Shown here: in pieces, positions 2,483 through 10,211 of the stretch
Layout of the letters: each line of letters starts with the position of its first letter
Numbering within the stretch: the first letter of the stretch is position 1
Virus record (IMG/VR): IMGVR_UViG_3300015157_000044
Direction: 5' to 3' (one strand)
DNA from: a virus
Taxonomy: Duplodnaviria; Heunggongvirae; Uroviricota; Caudoviricetes
DNA: 25,265 nt
Position numbers and translations under genes: made by a program
The notes under the pieces: generated by a model
Seen by the model: only the letters and a program-made list of their open reading frames with translations
Databases searched by the model: none
What the model was told of the DNA's origin: nothing

Positions 2483-3027
2483 GCCTCCATCGCTTTATCA
2501 GGTTTGTCGGTGTTACTGCCCTGACCGTTCTCTCTGTGACGATGCCCGTTATAGGCAAGCCGCATCGCTGACATGGTGGTGCCGCTGGAGTCGCACAGGT
2601 CTTTCACCTGTCCTGTCACTTCCAGGTCCATTTCAAAACGTGCTTTAGGTGAATTGCGAAACGTGATCGTTTTACCTGCACCGTCCACCACGATCCCCTC
2701 CCGGGTCAGCGTCACGGACTGCCCCTGATCGTCATAGACAGCCACCTCACCCGTCTGCAGCCCTTTCAGGCGGTAACGCCGATCCGACACCATAACAACC
2801 ACCGCATGAGAACGGTCACCATCCGGAAACAACACCACCGCTTCCGCACCGCTGTTTGCCCTTGCGGTAAAACCGTAAGGTTCAAGATGTTCAACCCCGG
2901 CTTTGGGTTCACCGGCAATCAGGGACACATCCACGGTCTGACATTTCGTGGCGGCACTGATGCTTTTCACCACGGCCCGCCCAATCAGGCCGAGGAGTTG
3001 TCGCTGCATGGCTTCAATCGTCCTCAT
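2479..3027 (-). CDS. Baseplate assembly protein V / spike (Mu gp45-like)
   Basis: 182 aa ORF following the gpP-like gene with ATGA-type overlap; size and position of the gpV spike family. Confidence 0.65.
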   Translation of the reverse strand: MRTIEAMQRQLLGLIGRAVVKSISAATKCQTVDVSLIAGEPKAGVEHLEPYGFTARANSGAEAVVLFPDGDRSHAVVVMVSDRRYRLKGLQTGEVAVYDDQGQSVTLTREGIVVDGAGKTITFRNSPKARFEMDLEVTGQVKDLCDSSGTTMSAMRLAYNGHRHRENGQGSNTDKPDKAMEA

Positions 3028-4106
3028 CAGAACGGGTCCTCCTGTACTCTGGCTTTTTTCTTTTTCCGCGCGCCGGGGGCTTCGGGTTCAGGCAGATAAG
3101 CATCAGGTGGGCCGACACGGATTTCCGTCAGAGTGCCGTTCTGGTCCTGAGTAAACGTGACTTCCGAAACAAGCAGTTCGGTATTGTCGAAACCACAGAC
3201 CGGATCAAAGACAATCACCCGCTGGTTGGGCTGCCACAGCGTACCATTACCCTGTCGCCAGCCCTGCACCACATAGGTGGTTTCATCCGTCCGCGCCGCC
3301 CGTTGTCGGGCTTCAAAGTCCGCACGGGCAATACAGCCTGCCCCCGTAGCCTGCCCTGTCTGCCTGATATACATCGGACGGTAACGGGCAATAAATGCGT
3401 CCTCTGTGCGGGCCCGCAGCGCGGTGGTGGTGGCCTCACCGAAATCATCGTCGTTTCCGGCACGCTGCCCCGCCACCTGGTAAACAGAAAACCGCTCCCG
3501 GATACTCTTCTCCGTATCGCAGGAAAGGATGTTTTCCCCGAGTACCAGCGCAGTATGTGCTCGCGTTGAGCCAATACCGCCAATCACCAGCCTGCCGTGC
3601 GGGTCGTCGTAAGCCAGTGCCTGCTGCTGACCGAGTATTTTGTTGATTACCTCAATCACCGTTTCACCGTGATCAGGCTGGACATCAGGAATAACACCCG
3701 ACGGCGCACCGTTGTTCACCACCTCAATGCTGAAAGGCGCAGCAAGCGCCTGCGCAATCTGTACCAGCGATCGTCCGTTAAACTGTGTCGGTTCGGCTGC
3801 ACAGTCAATCAGGTCAGCGGTCAGACTGCGTCCGGCAATACCGGTGCTGACCGAACGGGCATCGTAACGAACGGGCGTCGCCTCCACCCAGCCGGTGATC
3901 ACCAGCTCATCACCAATCAACACCTCCACTTTTGAACCGTTTTTAATGCGCGGCTGAAGCGTGGTAATACCCTCATCTCCCGGCCACTGGCGGGTGATCT
4001 CCACACTGAAATCCCGCGCCAGCCGTTCAATACCGGCACCGATGCGCACCGATGTCCAGCCATTCCACTCCCGGCCATTTACCCGTAGCGTGACATTGTC
4101 GTTCAT
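3027..4106 (-). CDS. Tail/baseplate hub protein (Mu gpP / gp44-like)
   Basis: 359 aa ORF between the DNA circulation and gpV-like genes, in conserved Mu-like tail order. Confidence 0.65.
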   Translation of the reverse strand: MNDNVTLRVNGREWNGWTSVRIGAGIERLARDFSVEITRQWPGDEGITTLQPRIKNGSKVEVLIGDELVITGWVEATPVRYDARSVSTGIAGRSLTADLIDCAAEPTQFNGRSLVQIAQALAAPFSIEVVNNGAPSGVIPDVQPDHGETVIEVINKILGQQQALAYDDPHGRLVIGGIGSTRAHTALVLGENILSCDTEKSIRERFSVYQVAGQRAGNDDDFGEATTTALRARTEDAFIARYRPMYIRQTGQATGAGCIARADFEARQRAARTDETTYVVQGWRQGNGTLWQPNQRVIVFDPVCGFDNTELLVSEVTFTQDQNGTLTEIRVGPPDAYLPEPEAPGARKKKKARVQEDPF

Positions 4107-5444: not shown

Positions 5445-5503
5445 ACAAAAAACCCGCCAAATCTGCTTTGTCAGTTATTTACATCGCAGAAGATGTGGCG
5501 GGG
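5445..5503 (-). terminator. Terminator-like hairpin on the minus strand after the secreted-protein gene
   Basis: Inverted repeat CCCGCCA (5496-5502) / TGGCGGG (5451-5457) followed on the minus strand by a T6 run (plus A-run 5445-5450). The ~38 nt loop is long for a classical intrinsic terminator. Confidence 0.3.
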
Positions 5504-5521
5504 TTCTAATATTTTCAATTA

Positions 5522-6016
5522 CTATCTGAGTTGAACATCAATGGAATAAACATTACCACTCTTTATAAATTTAGAGTCCGTCCTTTCATCAAAGGATTCA
5601 AATGACTGTACCTTTGAAAACTTTTTCATTTTATTTTCAAAAATACTTTCATTAACACCAGTTAAATACTTGAATGCTCTACCAGCAAGGACCTCATTAC
5701 TTAAAGTTTTTGTGTTTTTATTGTCTTTGAAAAACCAAATAATAACCTTTTGTGGACATGATGGATTATAAACAGATATATAAAACTGCGGCTCATATTT
5801 TTCATCAGCGTCATCACTGAGCATTTCTTCAGAAGATAATTCTCTTCTGAATTCATATTGCCGCTTAGTTATTCCTTCATCCTTTATTATCTCTTGCTTA
5901 ACTGGTGCAATACCTATAGAAGAGATTAATTCTGACTCATTAAAGCTGAACTTACACTCTTCCGCAGCCAAGTTAAAAGATAAAAGTGCAGATATAAAAA
6001 AAACAAAGATACGCAT
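5522..6016 (-). CDS. Secreted hypothetical protein (single-gene AT-rich insert in the tail module)
   Basis: ORF 5522..6034 in the track; the likely start is ATG 6016 (GAAGGG Shine-Dalgarno 6 nt upstream), giving MRIFVFFISALLSFNLAA as a signal peptide. The gene is visibly AT-rich against GC-rich flanks and lies between the tape measure and DNA circulation genes. Mature part has two Cys. Confidence 0.6.
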   Translation of the reverse strand: MRIFVFFISALLSFNLAAEECKFSFNESELISSIGIAPVKQEIIKDEGITKRQYEFRRELSSEEMLSDDADEKYEPQFYISVYNPSCPQKVIIWFFKDNKNTKTLSNEVLAGRAFKYLTGVNESIFENKMKKFSKVQSFESFDERTDSKFIKSGNVYSIDVQLR

Positions 6017-6034
6017 AATCATCCCTTCAATCAT

Positions 6035-6115
6035 TTGTAAGGAATGATTATATTAACTACTTAAAGCTGAAAACCCAAATTATGCCAGACAAAAACACAT
6101 TAATCATTTTGTACA
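6035..6115 (-). promoter_or_regulatory. AT-rich intergenic region with candidate promoter for the secreted-protein gene
   Basis: Exact TATAAT on the minus strand (plus 6047-6052) about 30 nt upstream of ATG 6016; no convincing -35 box, so this is tentative. Confidence 0.25.
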
Positions 6116-7948
6116 CTACCTGAACCGCGTATAGCCAACATCATGGCTGACATCAAAACCGCTGGATCGCGTTTCCATAACCCGCATACCCGGAGGCGAA
6201 TTCACAAAAGATACCTTGATCTCACCATCAACTTTTGGCGCAGAAGCTTTGTTAATCATGAAGGGATTCGGGCCTGTGGCATTGGAGGCGTTGTTTGACT
6301 GAGCCGGATCCACCGCCGGATAAGGTGTGTATCCCCGCGCCGGTATTCCCGTCCCATAAGCATCATAAGCACCCGCGCCCCACTGCGCAGAGTTAATGGC
6401 ATCGACCGTGTCACCGGAACTGTCGGTAAACCACTCAATAATTGGCTTCAGCTTGTCCCACATATCCTGAAACCACTTAACAACCGGTCCCCAGTTATTG
6501 ATTACCATCCCCAGCGGCGACCAGGCAAAAACCTTCTTCAGAAGTTCCCAGCCAGCCTCAAAATAAGGACCAATGGTTTCCCAGAGCTTCTTGAAATAAG
6601 GTCCGACAACATCCCAGTTAGTGATAATTAATCCCGCAGCCAGGGCTATCGCCGTCGCAATCATTCCAATCGGCGTCATCGACATGATCCTGCTGACAAT
6701 ACTGATGGCACCGCCAACGCCCATCAATCCCAGTTTCAGAATCGCAAGACCGGCAGCAAGCCCGACGACGCCGCGAATAACCCGGGGATTTTCATCCGCA
6801 AACTTCGTGAATTTCTCCCCCAACTCCCCCAGCCATTGTGTGATATTTTTAGCGTCACCAGAAAATGCGCCGCCAATAGCCGCAAGGCCGTTAGTTGCGG
6901 TCCCCGTCATTGCCTCCCACAGGTTGGACAGCGTACCAAGCTGGGCCTGAACACGTTTATTCAGGCTGGCCTGTTTATTCATCTTCTGCTGGATCTGATC
7001 GTAGCCATCCTTTCCTTTATCGATTAGTGCATTGACCACCTGAAGGGTTTCGGCATCATCACCAAATATTGCCTTAAGTACACCTGTTCGCTTAACGTCG
7101 GTCAGTTTTCGCAGCTTTGCCAGTTGCCTGAACATGTTATCAAGACCGCCAAAACTACCTTTGCCGTCAGTAAAATCGAGCTGTACCCCGAGTTTCTGGC
7201 GGGCCATGACTTTATTGACGTCCCTGATTTTCTTAACGCTTAATCCGGACTGGATAACTTTTCGCAGGGCATTACCTGCTGACTCCCCGTTCATCCCCAT
7301 CTGATCCATCATGACGCTGATGGGGGCAAGGCTCTGTGCAGCCTGAAGACCGTCCTTGTTCACCATCTTCAGAACAGAACTGGTTTTAGTGAAGAAGGAC
7401 AACATGTTGGTATCGTCAACGCCCAGATAAAACGCCTTCTGGATAGTGTCGAACAGCCCCATCATGTCTTCTGACGCCGTTCCGGTAGCATCCTGCATCT
7501 TTGCAGCAAACTCAGCAGCCGCTTCCGGTGTTTTTTTCAGTTGTACCGCAAGATAAGCTGTCGCTTTACCCACACCACCCAGAATGTTTTCTGCCGGGAT
7601 CCCCTGACGCACCAGCATCTGCATCATGTTCTGGAAATCAGCCGTTGTACCGGGTAGCTGGTTACCCAGGCCAATAGCCAGTTTATTGATGTCCTGAAAG
7701 CTCTTTCCAACCTCGCCGTTCGCATCCATCATGGCGACTTTCAGCCCGGTAGCGGCGTTTTCCTGATCGGCATAAGATTTCAGGGAAAGCGTCAGCCCCG
7801 CTGCCAGTCCTCCACCAAGCGCCAGCCCACCCTGTGACGCTTCTTCCGCCTGGCGTTTAAATCCCCGGATTTTCTTTTGCATTTTCGACAGCGCGGGAGA
7901 AAGCCTGTCGACACCGGTGATCAACGCCTTAAGCTCAAATTCAGCCAT
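6116..7948 (-). CDS. Tail tape measure protein
   Basis: 610 aa ORF immediately downstream of the frameshifted chaperone pair; Ala/Gly-rich with hydrophobic segments in the C-terminal half, typical of tape measure proteins. Confidence 0.8.
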   Translation of the reverse strand: MAEFELKALITGVDRLSPALSKMQKKIRGFKRQAEEASQGGLALGGGLAAGLTLSLKSYADQENAATGLKVAMMDANGEVGKSFQDINKLAIGLGNQLPGTTADFQNMMQMLVRQGIPAENILGGVGKATAYLAVQLKKTPEAAAEFAAKMQDATGTASEDMMGLFDTIQKAFYLGVDDTNMLSFFTKTSSVLKMVNKDGLQAAQSLAPISVMMDQMGMNGESAGNALRKVIQSGLSVKKIRDVNKVMARQKLGVQLDFTDGKGSFGGLDNMFRQLAKLRKLTDVKRTGVLKAIFGDDAETLQVVNALIDKGKDGYDQIQQKMNKQASLNKRVQAQLGTLSNLWEAMTGTATNGLAAIGGAFSGDAKNITQWLGELGEKFTKFADENPRVIRGVVGLAAGLAILKLGLMGVGGAISIVSRIMSMTPIGMIATAIALAAGLIITNWDVVGPYFKKLWETIGPYFEAGWELLKKVFAWSPLGMVINNWGPVVKWFQDMWDKLKPIIEWFTDSSGDTVDAINSAQWGAGAYDAYGTGIPARGYTPYPAVDPAQSNNASNATGPNPFMINKASAPKVDGEIKVSFVNSPPGMRVMETRSSGFDVSHDVGYTRFR

Positions 7949-8108
7949 GTGTGCGTTTCTCCTGCTCTATCCTGTTTGCCTGACTGACCAGCAAGGGAAT
8001 TTCACTGATCGGCATATTCAGCAATTCGAAGGGATTAATGCGCCAGTAGCTGGCGCAGTCAAAGAAGCGATCAGTGAGGTATTCAGCCGTCAGGCCTGGA
8101 GGAAAAAA
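7941..8108 (-). CDS. Tail assembly chaperone, -1 frameshift extension (gpGT-like fusion C-terminal part)
   Basis: ORF 7941..8123 is in the -1 frame relative to ORF 8090..8359 and overlaps it at the slippery heptamer T TTT TTC (plus 8102-8108, GAAAAAA). It ends overlapping the tape measure start. Confidence 0.55.
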   Translation of the reverse strand, partial: FFPPGLTAEYLTDRFFDCASYWRINPFELLNMPISEIPLLVSQANRIEQEKRTHG

Positions 8109-8359
8109 CCAGCCACAAGCCACGCCGCTGCATTCAGGTCTGCCGGAGACATCTGGTCGACAGAGCTTTGCGGCACTTTCGCCAGCCGCACAATGTATTT
8201 CGACACCACATGCGCCAGAAGTCTGACGGACTCATCCTGATTCATCTGGTAGGGATACCCCAGCTCACGGACATCTTTCCCGGTGGGCTCATCAAACTCC
8301 AGTACGGAGAGTGTCTCGCCATGAGCGGTAATCGGTTTCTTTAACTCAAGCTCTTTCAT
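8090..8359 (-). CDS. Tail assembly chaperone (zero-frame product)
   Basis: 89 aa ORF between the tube and tape measure genes, with a slippery site near its 3' end; position is conserved for the gpG/gpE-type chaperone. Confidence 0.65.
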   Translation of the reverse strand: MKELELKKPITAHGETLSVLEFDEPTGKDVRELGYPYQMNQDESVRLLAHVVSKYIVRLAKVPQSSVDQMSPADLNAAAWLVAGFFLQA

Positions 8360-8715
8360 TACTGGTAATCCCCTTCTTCACCGTGGAACTCAAGATCGAC
8401 CGTGCCTTCTTCGGCATTATGGTTCGCTTCGCCGTGCAGCCAGGCAGACGACAGTACATAGACCTGACCGTTCGCCAGCTCGGCAGTGATGGTCATCTCA
8501 TCAGACGAGGTGATTTTGCTCACCGGAAAATTCTTCGGCACCTTGAAGGTCCCTTTGACATAAGGCGCACGGTGAGTTTCCTTGCGGTCCACTGAACCGT
8601 CCAGGCCGATGATGTCATCATTGACCGTCCTGTTCATGGGCACCTCAATGCCGCCGGTCAGCGATAGCTGCTGACCGTCAATTTTGAAATAACAGGTTCC
8701 CCCGATACGGGCCAT
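8359..8715 (-). CDS. Tail tube protein (Mu gpM-like)
   Basis: 118 aa ORF immediately after the sheath gene with a 1-nt overlap. Confidence 0.7.
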   Translation of the reverse strand: MARIGGTCYFKIDGQQLSLTGGIEVPMNRTVNDDIIGLDGSVDRKETHRAPYVKGTFKVPKNFPVSKITSSDEMTITAELANGQVYVLSSAWLHGEANHNAEEGTVDLEFHGEEGDYQ

Positions 8716-10211
8716 TATGCGGACTCCTCTGAATACTGAAGACGGAACTGGTTAACCACGGCAAAGACACGCAACTGGTTAACATAGTCAGGCGGGAACA
8801 GCGTGTTCAGGCGGTTCGGATCGCTGGCATCACGCTCCACAACCAGGTACTGCTTAAACAGTTCGTAGTTTTCCACGATCCCCGCACGCTCAAGCTGACG
8901 GTAGGTTGCCAGCAGTTCCCCTTTGATCACCGCCGGGGTGACAATCGCCTGACCGGGACCAAAGCGGGTACCGTCACTGGCAAGCTTGTGACGCCCGTAC
9001 TTACTGGTAATGACGGATTTCAGTTTGCGCAGTACATACGCGCTGGTATGCAGAGTCTCACTGTCGAGGTAGCTGTTATCCGCAACCCCGTAAGCGTTTT
9101 TCCTGTACGTGGTGACATCACGCTGAATGCGTAGTACCCCGCTTTCGACATACGCCGTTGCCACGCCATGAGACAGCAGGGTCTGTTGTTCGGTCATCGT
9201 GAACCGTTTCCCCTTCGGCGCAGGCAGCATACCCACCAGCTCACCGGTCTGCGTGGGACGTGCCGGATCGTTGCGAATAAACACCGCTGCGCGGGCGGTA
9301 CGGCTTGCCGCCAGTTCGTCGGCAGGCGTCTGGGTCTCTTTTTCGTACCCCGCCAGGGTAATGTGCTGCTGGTTAAACTGGTCACCTGCGGTCACCAGTT
9401 CTGACAGCGTGCCGATCTTTGCCGTATACACATGACCATACAGCTGACGCGCATAGCTCCAGCGACCGCTGGTATCGTTCATCTCGGTCACCAGCGTGTT
9501 AACGGAGGCCGTGTCGTTGAACGGCAGGCCGATATAATCAAACGGCTCATCCGCCATTGCAGCCACCGCGCCGGTGAGAACCGGAGCACCCGTTCCGGCG
9601 GTACCCGTCGCCACGGCAATCTGTACGCCCGCTGGCAGCACTTCGCCCCCACCAAAGCCGTAGTAATTGAGGCTGACAGGAATTTCATTCCCGCAAAGCC
9701 CCTTATGACGCGCGGTCAGTGTGACCACGCCTGCCGAAGATGAAGCCGTAAACGGCAGGGTCGGAACGGCATTGATGGCATCCTGGATACTGCTGGCAAT
9801 CGTCGTGACGTTATCGCCGTTGGTCACCGGAGCCTGCACGCGGGTACGTCCCACATAGATATTCACCGTGCCGCTTTCGGTTGCTTCCCCGGTCACCGTC
9901 AGCGTAACCGTTGCCGCCGCGCCTGTGGCTTCCGGAACGGCAATCACATACAGCTCACCAAACGGGTCGGTCTGGCGATAAGCCTCGACCATACGCGCCA
10001 GCTGACTTCCCGCACCACAAATCTGGCGTGCATAGTCTGCCGATGGCATCAGCACCAGACTGTTGGCAACAATCTCTGCACCGTTATTGGCATGACCAAT
10101 CAGCAGCGATGCTCCGCTGTCCTGTGCAGTATTCGCCGCCTGGTTATCCATTTCCGCATAAAACAACGGAACCAGCGTATTCGACGGAATGGTGTTAAAG
10201 CTTATCGTCAT
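8715..10211 (-). CDS. Contractile tail sheath protein (Mu gpL-like)
   Basis: 498 aa ORF followed by the tube gene; size and order are typical of myovirus sheath proteins. Confidence 0.8.
   Translation of the reverse strand: MTISFNTIPSNTLVPLFYAEMDNQAANTAQDSGASLLIGHANNGAEIVANSLVLMPSADYARQICGAGSQLARMVEAYRQTDPFGELYVIAVPEATGAAATVTLTVTGEATESGTVNIYVGRTRVQAPVTNGDNVTTIASSIQDAINAVPTLPFTASSSAGVVTLTARHKGLCGNEIPVSLNYYGFGGGEVLPAGVQIAVATGTAGTGAPVLTGAVAAMADEPFDYIGLPFNDTASVNTLVTEMNDTSGRWSYARQLYGHVYTAKIGTLSELVTAGDQFNQQHITLAGYEKETQTPADELAASRTARAAVFIRNDPARPTQTGELVGMLPAPKGKRFTMTEQQTLLSHGVATAYVESGVLRIQRDVTTYRKNAYGVADNSYLDSETLHTSAYVLRKLKSVITSKYGRHKLASDGTRFGPGQAIVTPAVIKGELLATYRQLERAGIVENYELFKQYLVVERDASDPNRLNTLFPPDYVNQLRVFAVVNQFRLQYSEESA

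What the first reader, a model, noticed from the sequence alone, without database searches (positions are those of the whole stretch)
8102..8108. Programmed -1 ribosomal frameshift site in the tail assembly chaperone
The zero-frame chaperone ORF (8090..8359) contains the slippery heptamer T TTT TTC six codons before its stop. The -1 frame continues open for about 55 further codons to 7941, overlapping the tape measure start. This matches the conserved frameshift that makes the two chaperone forms upstream of tape measure genes (lambda G/GT, P2 E/E').
Basis: partly seen in the sequence, partly recalled or inferred. Interest (0 to 1): 0.4.

Follow-up and report, generated by a model that had tools for sequence, protein, structure and literature searches.

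The report
Tail chaperone -1 frameshift site, SfV-like prophage
This is the usual programmed -1 ribosomal frameshift that lets a phage make a short and a long tail-assembly chaperone from one start codon, here in an SfV-like E. coli prophage; it is real and strongly conserved but ordinary, and public records simply fail to annotate it.

Summary
On the minus strand an 89-aa ORF (8359..8090) lies between the tail tube gene and the tape measure gene and is a Pfam PF10109 tail assembly chaperone. It carries T TTT TTC (8108..8102) in the X XXY YYZ phase, with three sense codons before its TGA. The -1 frame then runs 53 codons to a TGA at 7943..7941 and overlaps the tape measure ATG by 8 nt.

The heptamer alone is not beyond chance. 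What is beyond chance:
- All 25 related loci examined (100% down to about 40% identity, including a betaproteobacterium, SfIV, a Salmonella phage and P2) keep T TTT TTN at the same G-F-F/L position, with a 41-57 codon -1 extension.
- The extension shows a protein-coding substitution pattern only in the -1 frame.
- Half of the 22 loci checked for this have no start codon for it.
- Phage P2's annotated E/E+E' shift (T TTT TTG) sits at the same position of the same Pfam domain.

No convincing stimulatory RNA structure was found near the site.

Verdict: a new, unannotated member of a well-known kind, predicted to give G (9.9 kDa) and GT (139 aa, 15.8 kDa). Low interest.

The parts
8359..8715 (-). 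Tail tube gene (118 aa), immediately upstream of the chaperone gene; its last base overlaps the chaperone ATG.
   Evidence: PF10618 Tail_tube E=2.4e-33. Annotated as tail tube protein in SfV, SfI and E. coli RefSeq records.
8090..8359 (-). Zero-frame tail assembly chaperone 'G' (89 aa, 9.9 kDa); stop TGA at 8092..8090.
   Evidence: Translation. PF10109 Phage_TAC_7 E=1.9e-16, residues 4-86 on profile positions 2-78 of 79. phrog_166 tail protein E=7e-24. Mass.
8102..8108 (-). Slippery heptamer T TTT TTC in X XXY YYZ phase. tRNA-Phe on UUU (P site) and UUC (A site) can both re-pair to UUU UUU after a 1-nt backward slip.
   Evidence: Sequence. Conserved as TTTTTTC/T/G at the same G-F-F/L position in all 25 related loci examined. 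U_UU.U_UU.C is a measured -1 shifter in E. coli: 0.12% alone, 0.9% with the IS911 stimulator, 7.6% with the IS3 pseudoknot (PMC4066793 supplement).
7941..8102 (-). -1 frame 'T' extension: 53 sense codons (PPGLTAEYLTDRFFDCASYWRINPFELLNMPISEIPLLVSQANRIEQEKRTHG) plus TGA at 7943..7941. Joined to G residues 1-86 it gives GT of 139 aa, 15.8 kDa.
   Evidence: Matches phrog_32181 (unknown function) E=2e-41. Conserved motif FDCA.YWRINP..L....LL..QANRI across relatives. 681 synonymous vs 557 non-synonymous codon differences in this frame, against 110/1147 and 129/1128 in the other two.
6116..7948 (-). Tape measure gene (610 aa). Its ATG at 7948 overlaps the end of the -1 extension by 8 nt (ATGGCTGA). 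Shine-Dalgarno AGGAG at 7963..7959.
   Evidence: PF10145 PhageMin_Tail E=9.8e-27. The 8-nt overlap is conserved in 14 of the 22 loci; the P2 E+E'/T junction has the same 8-nt overlap.
8039..8057 (-). Conserved 8-bp hairpin UGCGCCAG-CUA-CUGGCGCA inside the T coding region, 44 nt 3' of the heptamer. Role unknown; too far away to be a classical -1 stimulator.
   Evidence: MFE fold. It is the only element kept in the consensus structure of the 16 sequences aligned over 110 nt from the heptamer; no compensatory changes. Synonymous sites are almost frozen there (TGC 16/16, GCC 14/16, TAC 14/14, CGC 13/15) while flanking codons vary.

Best explanation

Most ribosomes translate the 89-aa chaperone G and terminate at TGA 8092..8090. 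A minority shift while holding tRNA-Phe on UUU (P site) and UUC (A site) of T TTT TTC. They slip back one base, re-pair both tRNAs on UUU UUU, and continue in the -1 frame for 53 codons. The product is GT (139 aa), which shares its first 86 residues with G.

By analogy with lambda G/GT and P2 E/E+E', the G part would coat the tape measure protein, whose gene follows with an 8-nt overlap. The T part would recruit the tube protein. Neither G nor GT would end up in the virion, and the fixed low GT:G ratio would be set by the shift efficiency.

What is shown here: gene identity and order, heptamer and phase, the open -1 frame, conservation of all three across distant relatives, a coding signature in the -1 frame, and frequent absence of any start codon for T.

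What is inferred: that slippage is ribosomal rather than transcriptional, its efficiency, and the roles of G and T.
For: (1) Anatomy: searches show the order tube - PF10109 chaperone - tape measure, with the heptamer in phase three codons before the stop.

(2) Conservation: 22 loci from the window, E. coli and 20 genomes of other species (100% to 40% protein identity, including Derxia gummosa) all keep TTTTTTC/T at the same codon positions, with a -1 frame open 41-49 codons beyond the G stop. SfIV, Salmonella phage F1055, Pantoea phage AH07 and P2 do the same.

(3) The T peptides align with invariant A, W, P, L, A, R and I positions.

(4) The substitution pattern is protein-coding only in the -1 frame: 681/557 synonymous/non-synonymous against 110/1147 and 129/1128. 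Variable columns by codon position are 27/16/39.

(5) In 11 of 22 loci there is no ATG/GTG/TTG in the -1 frame between the upstream stop and 45 nt past the heptamer, so T cannot be started independently there.

(6) It is the only one of 19 in-phase heptamers in the window whose -1 product extends past the stop.

(7) In the P2 record, E+E' is annotated as a joined CDS with a -1 shift at TTTTTTG. P2 E hits PF10109 over the same profile positions (2-78). The products are 91 and 142 aa, against 89 and 139 here, and the overlap with gene T is the same 8 nt (PMC3091744).

(8) U_UU.U_UU.C promotes -1 shifting in E. coli reporters (PMC4066793).
Against: - There is no protein evidence (mass spectrometry or Western blot) for GT in this phage group.
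- No public record annotates the shift.
- No conserved stimulatory structure lies 5-9 nt downstream and no conserved upstream SD-like element was found. The bare heptamer gave only about 0.12% shifting in a reporter, so the efficiency here is unknown.
- The T part is not recognised by the Pfam model of P2 E' (PF06528).
- A T6 run could in principle also allow RNA polymerase slippage, which would give the same protein.
Confidence: 0.88

Rival explanations
1. Transcriptional slippage. RNA polymerase adds one extra U in the U6 run, and standard translation of the U7 mRNA yields the same G-F-F-P-P-G fusion.
For: The conserved element is a homopolymer of 6-7 T. The product would be identical to that of -1 ribosomal slippage, so sequence data alone cannot separate the two mechanisms.
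Against: Efficient bacterial polymerase slippage is described for runs of about 9 A or T, and T5C5 gives none without a special nascent-RNA hairpin (PMC5009743). Here the run is only 6-7. What is conserved is exactly a phase-correct X XXY YYZ heptamer. The homologous P2 site is annotated as a -1 translational frameshift.
Confidence: 0.06
2. Two separate genes. The downstream 60-codon ORF (8123..7941, GTG start) is translated on its own, as some records annotate it ('hypothetical protein').
For: Gene callers list it as an ORF with a GTG start. It is annotated as a separate CDS in vB_EcoM-689R6 and in one E. coli RefSeq genome.
Against: The GTG lies inside G with no Shine-Dalgarno in the 16 nt upstream. 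11 of 22 related loci have no possible start codon in that frame, yet conserve the peptide. The heptamer is invariant at synonymous positions.
Confidence: 0.03
3. No recoding at all. The heptamer simply encodes the conserved Gly-Phe-Phe, and the open -1 frame is a by-product or non-coding spacer.
For: G-F-F is conserved at protein level. TTTTTTY is common in the window.
Against: Phe-Phe could be TTC TTC or TTT TTC preceded by GGC/GGA/GGG. Yet GGT TTT TTY, or GGN giving T TTT TTY, is kept in all loci, even in GC-rich Derxia. The spacer has a clear -1 frame coding signature and a conserved peptide motif.
Confidence: 0.03

Closest known systems
Phage P2 E / E+E' (-1 frameshift at T TTT TTG; Christie et al. 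2002, Xu et al. 2004, as cited in PMC3091744)
   Same: - Same Pfam domain (PF10109) for the zero-frame protein.
- The slip site falls on the same G-F-F/L codons, at profile positions 77-78 of 79.
- U6-type heptamer.
- Product sizes are 91 and 142 aa in P2 against 89 and 139 aa here.
- The gene lies between the tube and tape measure genes of a contractile tail.
- Same 8-nt overlap with the tape measure start.
- No obvious downstream structure.

   Different: - The last base of the heptamer is C, not G.
- Only 3 codons lie between heptamer and stop, against 6 in P2.
- The -1 extension is not matched by the P2 E' model PF06528; only a weak profile alignment was found (hhalign E=0.005, probability 7%).
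- Pairwise BLASTP of the two fusions is not significant (E=0.63).
- The rest of the tail module is Mu-like, not P2-like.
Phage lambda G / GT (-1 frameshift at G GGA AAG; Levin et al. 1993; Xu et al. 2013, 2014, as summarised in PMC5009743)
   Same: The logic is the same. [quoted passage not shown] The long form is made at a low fixed ratio (about 1:30 in lambda).
   Different: Lambda uses a different heptamer and has a non-contractile tail. No sequence relationship was tested or claimed here; this is functional analogy only.
Phage Mu gp41 (tail assembly chaperone reached by a -2 frameshift)
   Same: The neighbouring genes here are Mu-like: sheath, tube, DUF2635, DNA circulation, gp44-48 homologues. 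Mu gp41 also gives a weak PF10109 match (24.7 bits against a 25-bit cut-off).
   Different: Mu is reported to use -2, not -1 (PMC5009743; PMC2628397). Mu gp41 belongs to PF23746, which the window protein does not match. In the window the frame reached by a -2/+1 shift is open for only 2 codons.

Membership tests
Conserved tail-assembly-chaperone frameshift of tailed phages (Xu et al. 2004 class) | Two overlapping ORFs located between the major tail/tube gene and the tape measure gene | tested here: met
   Tube 8359-8715 (PF10618), G 8090-8359, -1 ORF to 7941, tape measure 6116-7948 (PF10145).
Conserved tail-assembly-chaperone frameshift of tailed phages (Xu et al. 2004 class) | [quoted passage not shown] | tested here: met
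   T TTT TTC at 8108..8102, three codons before TGA; a -1 shift enters the 53-codon frame.
Conserved tail-assembly-chaperone frameshift of tailed phages (Xu et al. 2004 class) | Site, phase and downstream frame conserved among diverged relatives; downstream part protein-coding but without its own start | tested here: met
   All 25 loci keep the site. Coding signature is seen only in the -1 frame, and 11 of 22 loci have no start codon.
Conserved tail-assembly-chaperone frameshift of tailed phages (Xu et al. 2004 class) | Both products made in vivo and required for tail assembly | not testable with these tools
   Needs Western blot or mass spectrometry and genetics. No paper on this phage group reporting it was found in the held library.
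P2 E/E+E' family | Zero-frame protein belongs to PF10109 (Phage_TAC_7) | tested here: met
   Window protein E=1.9e-16, 60.3 bits against a 25-bit cut-off. P2 E+E' E=1.8e-12.
P2 E/E+E' family | U6-type heptamer on the G-F-(F/L) codons at the C-terminal end of the domain | tested here: met
   Window GGT TTT TTC (residues 84-86); P2 GGT TTT TTG (residues 83-85). Both domain matches end at profile position 78 of 79.
P2 E/E+E' family | -1 extension homologous to P2 E' (PF06528 Phage_P2_GpE) | tested here: not met
   No PF06528 hit for the fusion at E<=0.01, nor for 11 T peptides at E<=10. hhalign of the T profile against P2 E' gave E=0.005 but probability 7%. The T part is instead phrog_32181.
Mu gp41 type (-2 frameshift) | Protein in PF23746 (Gp41_Mu) and a -2 shift into the +1 frame | tested here: not met
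   No PF23746 hit, whereas Mu gp41 hits at E=9e-35. The +1 frame is open for only 2 codons past the stop.
Stimulated -1 PRF of the dnaX / IS3 type | Stem-loop or pseudoknot 5-9 nt 3' of the heptamer and/or an SD-like element 6-17 nt 5' of it | tested here: inconclusive
   Only a weak 4-bp hairpin lies 5 nt downstream. The consensus folds keep a hairpin 44 nt away and long-range pairs with almost no covariation. SD-like GGAGG upstream appears only in some relatives such as L099.

The most novel reading that the evidence does not exclude
The nearly frozen 8-bp hairpin 44 nt downstream (8057..8039), and/or long-range pairing of the slip-site region with downstream sequence, could be a functional RNA element. 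The candidate pairs are U5CCU with the tape measure Shine-Dalgarno, and GCCUG 6 nt after the heptamer with CAGGC at about 7982..7978. Such an element might tune the frameshift level from a distance, or couple tape measure translation to chaperone translation. It would be a regulatory layer not described for tail chaperone frameshifts.
Probability: 0.08. Interest if true: 0.4.

Novelty: new member of a known kind. Interest (0 to 1): 0.15.

Why it matters
Its main value is for annotation. The SfV, SfI, SfII and SfIV reference genomes, other phage records and over a thousand E. coli RefSeq prophage copies list only the 89-aa protein. Some add a spurious 60-aa 'hypothetical protein'. The 139-aa GT product is therefore missing from protein databases.

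The result also shows that phages with Mu-like tail genes do not all use Mu's reported -2 shift. This lineage uses the P2-type -1 shift on a U6 heptamer, conserved from Enterobacteriaceae to a betaproteobacterium. It does not open a new question.

Tried and rejected
- **Natural fused genes.** I looked for these as independent support. Six apparent G-T fusion proteins (107-139 aa; the three that cover the whole fusion query are 137-139 aa) came up in the protein search. Their sequences show scattered indel scars, so they are assembly errors and carry no weight.
- **Stimulatory structure.** The local fold gives z=-2.1, mostly from the distant hairpin. A 200-nt fold gives z=-1.9. The RNAalifold covariation term is negligible.
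- **Slip site pairing with the tape measure ribosome-binding site.** The slip-site windows rank high in several loci, but 26 of 370 windows do better in the window itself. The effect is expected from pyrimidine-rich against purine-rich composition, so I rejected it as evidence.
- **Homology of T to P2 E'.** BLASTP is not significant, Pfam gives nothing and hhalign is ambiguous.
- **Solved structures.** No match for the G profile.
- **NCBIfam.** No model matches.
- **Literature.** Xu et al. 2004, Christie et al. 2002 and the SfV genome paper are not held. I could not check whether SfV is among Xu's 28 phages. Text searches for the heptamer with tail terms found nothing.
- **Promoter and terminator scan.** Nothing on the coding strand.

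Full report
**Where the window comes from.** The region is 100% identical to a prophage in E. coli GPEC1405. About a fifth of complete E. coli genomes carry a close copy (1,063 of 5,426). It is 98.5-99% identical to the Shigella/E. coli myoviruses SfV, SfI, SfII, SKA5 and vB_EcoM-689R6. All genes of interest lie on the minus strand. The order is HK97-type capsid (PF05065), tail terminator, DUF2635, sheath (8715-10211), tube (8359-8715, PF10618), the 89-aa ORF (8090-8359), tape measure (6116-7948, PF10145), then Mu-like DNA-circulation and baseplate genes.

**Checking the observation.**
- The minus-strand sequence ends the 89-aa ORF with GGT TTT TTC CTC CAG GCC TGA.
- T TTT TTC therefore sits at 8108..8102 in the X XXY YYZ phase, with three sense codons between it and TGA 8092..8090.
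- After a -1 slip the frame reads CCT CCA GGC ... for 53 codons, to TGA 7943..7941.
- The tape measure ATG is at 7948, an 8-nt overlap (ATGGCTGA).

The motif alone is not remarkable: TTTTTTY occurs 24 times in the window against 13.6 +/- 5.3 expected. However, of 19 in-phase X XXY YYZ heptamers in about 7,700 codons, this is the only one whose -1 product outruns the zero-frame stop, by 50 codons. The +1 frame closes after 2 codons.

**What the gene is.** The 89-aa protein matches Pfam PF10109, 'Phage tail assembly chaperone proteins, E, or 41 or 14' (E=1.9e-16, 60 bits against a 25-bit cut-off, residues 4-86 on profile positions 2-78 of 79). It also matches phrog_166 'tail protein'. The -1 peptide matches only phrog_32181, of unknown function. 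This shows that gene callers often list it as an orphan ORF.

**Comparative evidence.** A scan of one genome per bacterial species returned 20 loci at 100% to 40% protein identity. They include Edwardsiella, Buttiauxella, Citrobacter, Atlantibacter, Scandinavium, Kluyvera, Erwinia, Pantoea and Kosakonia, and the betaproteobacterium Derxia gummosa. I added the window and an 82%-identical E. coli prophage, giving 22 loci.
- All 22 keep TTTTTTC (TTTTTTT in two) on the same G-F-F codons.
- All 22 keep the -1 frame open 41-49 codons beyond the G stop.
- The distance from heptamer to G stop varies from 3 to 14 codons. What is conserved is therefore the site, not the stop.
- The more distant SfIV and Salmonella F1055 chaperones (107-108 aa, T TTT TTT, 21 codons before the stop), Pantoea phage AH07 and P2 show the same layout.

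The -1 peptides align with the motif (Y/F)FDCA.(Y/F)WR(I/L)NP..L....LL..QANRI and seven invariant positions. In the stretch overlapped by neither G nor the tape measure gene, variable columns fall 27/16/39 on codon positions 1/2/3 of the -1 frame. Pairwise codon differences are 681 synonymous to 557 non-synonymous in that frame, against 110/1147 and 129/1128 in the other two. The -1 frame is therefore translated.

In 11 of the 22 loci there is no ATG, GTG or TTG in that frame between the upstream stop and 45 nt past the heptamer. The GTG present in the window (8123) has no Shine-Dalgarno. The only route into the frame that all loci share is a shift at the heptamer.

**Mechanism.** The heptamer lets tRNA-Phe in both the P site (UUU) and the A site (UUC) re-pair with UUU UUU after a one-base backward slip.
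- In E. coli reporters, U_UU.U_UU.C gives 0.12% shifting alone, 0.9% with the IS911 stimulators and 7.6% with the IS3 pseudoknot. H_HH.U_UU.Y motifs are among the most efficient in E. coli (PMC4066793).
- The predicted products are G (89 aa, 9.9 kDa) and GT (139 aa, 15.8 kDa).
- The roles of the two parts, G binding the tape measure and T recruiting the tube subunit at a low fixed ratio, are inferred from lambda (PMC5009743). They were not tested here.

**Stimulatory elements.** None is convincing.
- Locally there is only a 4-bp hairpin 5 nt downstream, plus an 8-bp hairpin (UGCGCCAG-CUA-CUGGCGCA, 8057..8039) that starts 44 nt after the heptamer.
- That distant hairpin is the only element kept in the consensus fold of 16 diverged sequences, without any compensatory change.
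- Its synonymous sites are almost invariant while neighbouring codons vary freely. This hints at RNA-level selection of unknown purpose.
- A longer consensus fold pairs the slip-site region with the tape measure ribosome-binding site, and GCCUG with CAGGC, with almost no covariation. A duplex-energy control shows that the ribosome-binding-site pairing is not special.
- Upstream SD-like sequences occur in a few relatives only.
- This absence matches what is reported for P2 (PMC3091744).

**Comparison with known systems.**
- *P2.* The P2 record annotates E (91 aa) and E+E' (142 aa, joined CDS, 'site of -1 translational frameshift'), with an 8-nt overlap onto gene T. The site is GGT TTT TTG on G-F-L. 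P2 E matches PF10109 over the same profile positions as the window protein. The two slip sites are therefore homologous in position.
- *The extensions differ.* P2 E' is PF06528, which the T peptides do not match. Profile comparison is ambiguous (E=0.005, probability 7%). BLASTP of the fusions is not significant.
- *Mu.* Phage Mu supplies the closest homologues of the surrounding tail genes, but it is reported to use a -2 shift (PMC5009743; PMC2628397). Its gp41 belongs to PF23746, so this locus is not of the Mu type.

**Rival explanations.**
- Transcriptional slippage on the T6 run would give the same protein. However, efficient bacterial polymerase slippage is described for runs of about nine (PMC5009743). 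I give it about 6%.
- Independent initiation of the small ORF, and 'no recoding at all', are each contradicted. I give each about 3%.

**Novelty.** None of the records inspected annotates the shift. These include SfV, SfIV, vB_EcoM-689R6, Pantoea AH07, Salmonella F1055 and three RefSeq E. coli genomes. Two of them call the -1 ORF a separate hypothetical protein. I found no paper in the held library describing it for this phage group. The key paper (Xu et al. 2004) is not held, so prior mention cannot be excluded.

**Verdict.** The site is a strongly supported, still unannotated member of a well-known class, and of low interest beyond fixing the annotation.

Noticed in passing
window 5450-6115 (ORF 5522-6034, minus strand): A low-GC island (0.31-0.36 against about 0.53 around it) holds a 170-aa ORF wedged between the tape measure and DNA-circulation genes. 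It has no Pfam match and hits phrog_8976 (unknown function, E=2e-105). It looks like a moron-type insertion in the tail operon.
   Followed up: partly
window 8039-8057 (minus strand): A perfect 8-bp hairpin, UGCGCCAG-CUA-CUGGCGCA, lies inside the T coding region, 44 nt 3' of the heptamer. It is conserved in 14 of 16 diverged sequences. Its synonymous sites are nearly frozen while flanking codons vary. No covariation; function unknown.
   Followed up: partly
window 8108-8089 with 7984-7956 (minus strand): The consensus fold pairs U5CCU of the slip site with the tape measure Shine-Dalgarno (AGGAGAAG), and GCCUG (6 nt after the heptamer) with CAGGC. A duplex-energy control suggests this is a composition by-product.
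   Followed up: yes
window 8102-8094 (minus strand): Right after the shift the -1 frame encodes Pro-Pro-Gly. From general knowledge this is an EF-P-dependent stalling motif. It is present in only 7 of 16 relatives; others have P-A-G, P-S-G or P-R-D, so it is probably incidental.
   Followed up: partly
public records: L001 2178-2360 (vB_EcoM-689R6), L006 878-1060 (E. coli NT1F10): The -1 extension is annotated as a free-standing 60-aa 'hypothetical protein' starting at an internal GTG. Other records leave the 140-nt stretch unannotated. No record joins it to the chaperone gene.
   Followed up: yes
proteins P0001-P0006 (metagenome assemblies): Apparent in-frame chaperone fusions of 107-139 aa are riddled with local frame errors at different places. 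They are assembly indel artefacts, not natural fused genes.
   Followed up: yes
L003 (SfIV) 2939-3354; L108 (Salmonella phage F1055) 417-835: A second, <50% identical chaperone/tape-measure cassette has been swapped into otherwise SfV-like phages. It has a longer G (107-108 aa), heptamer T TTT TTT 21 codons before the stop, and a T peptide of the same family. This shows mosaic exchange of the whole chaperone-tape measure unit.
   Followed up: partly
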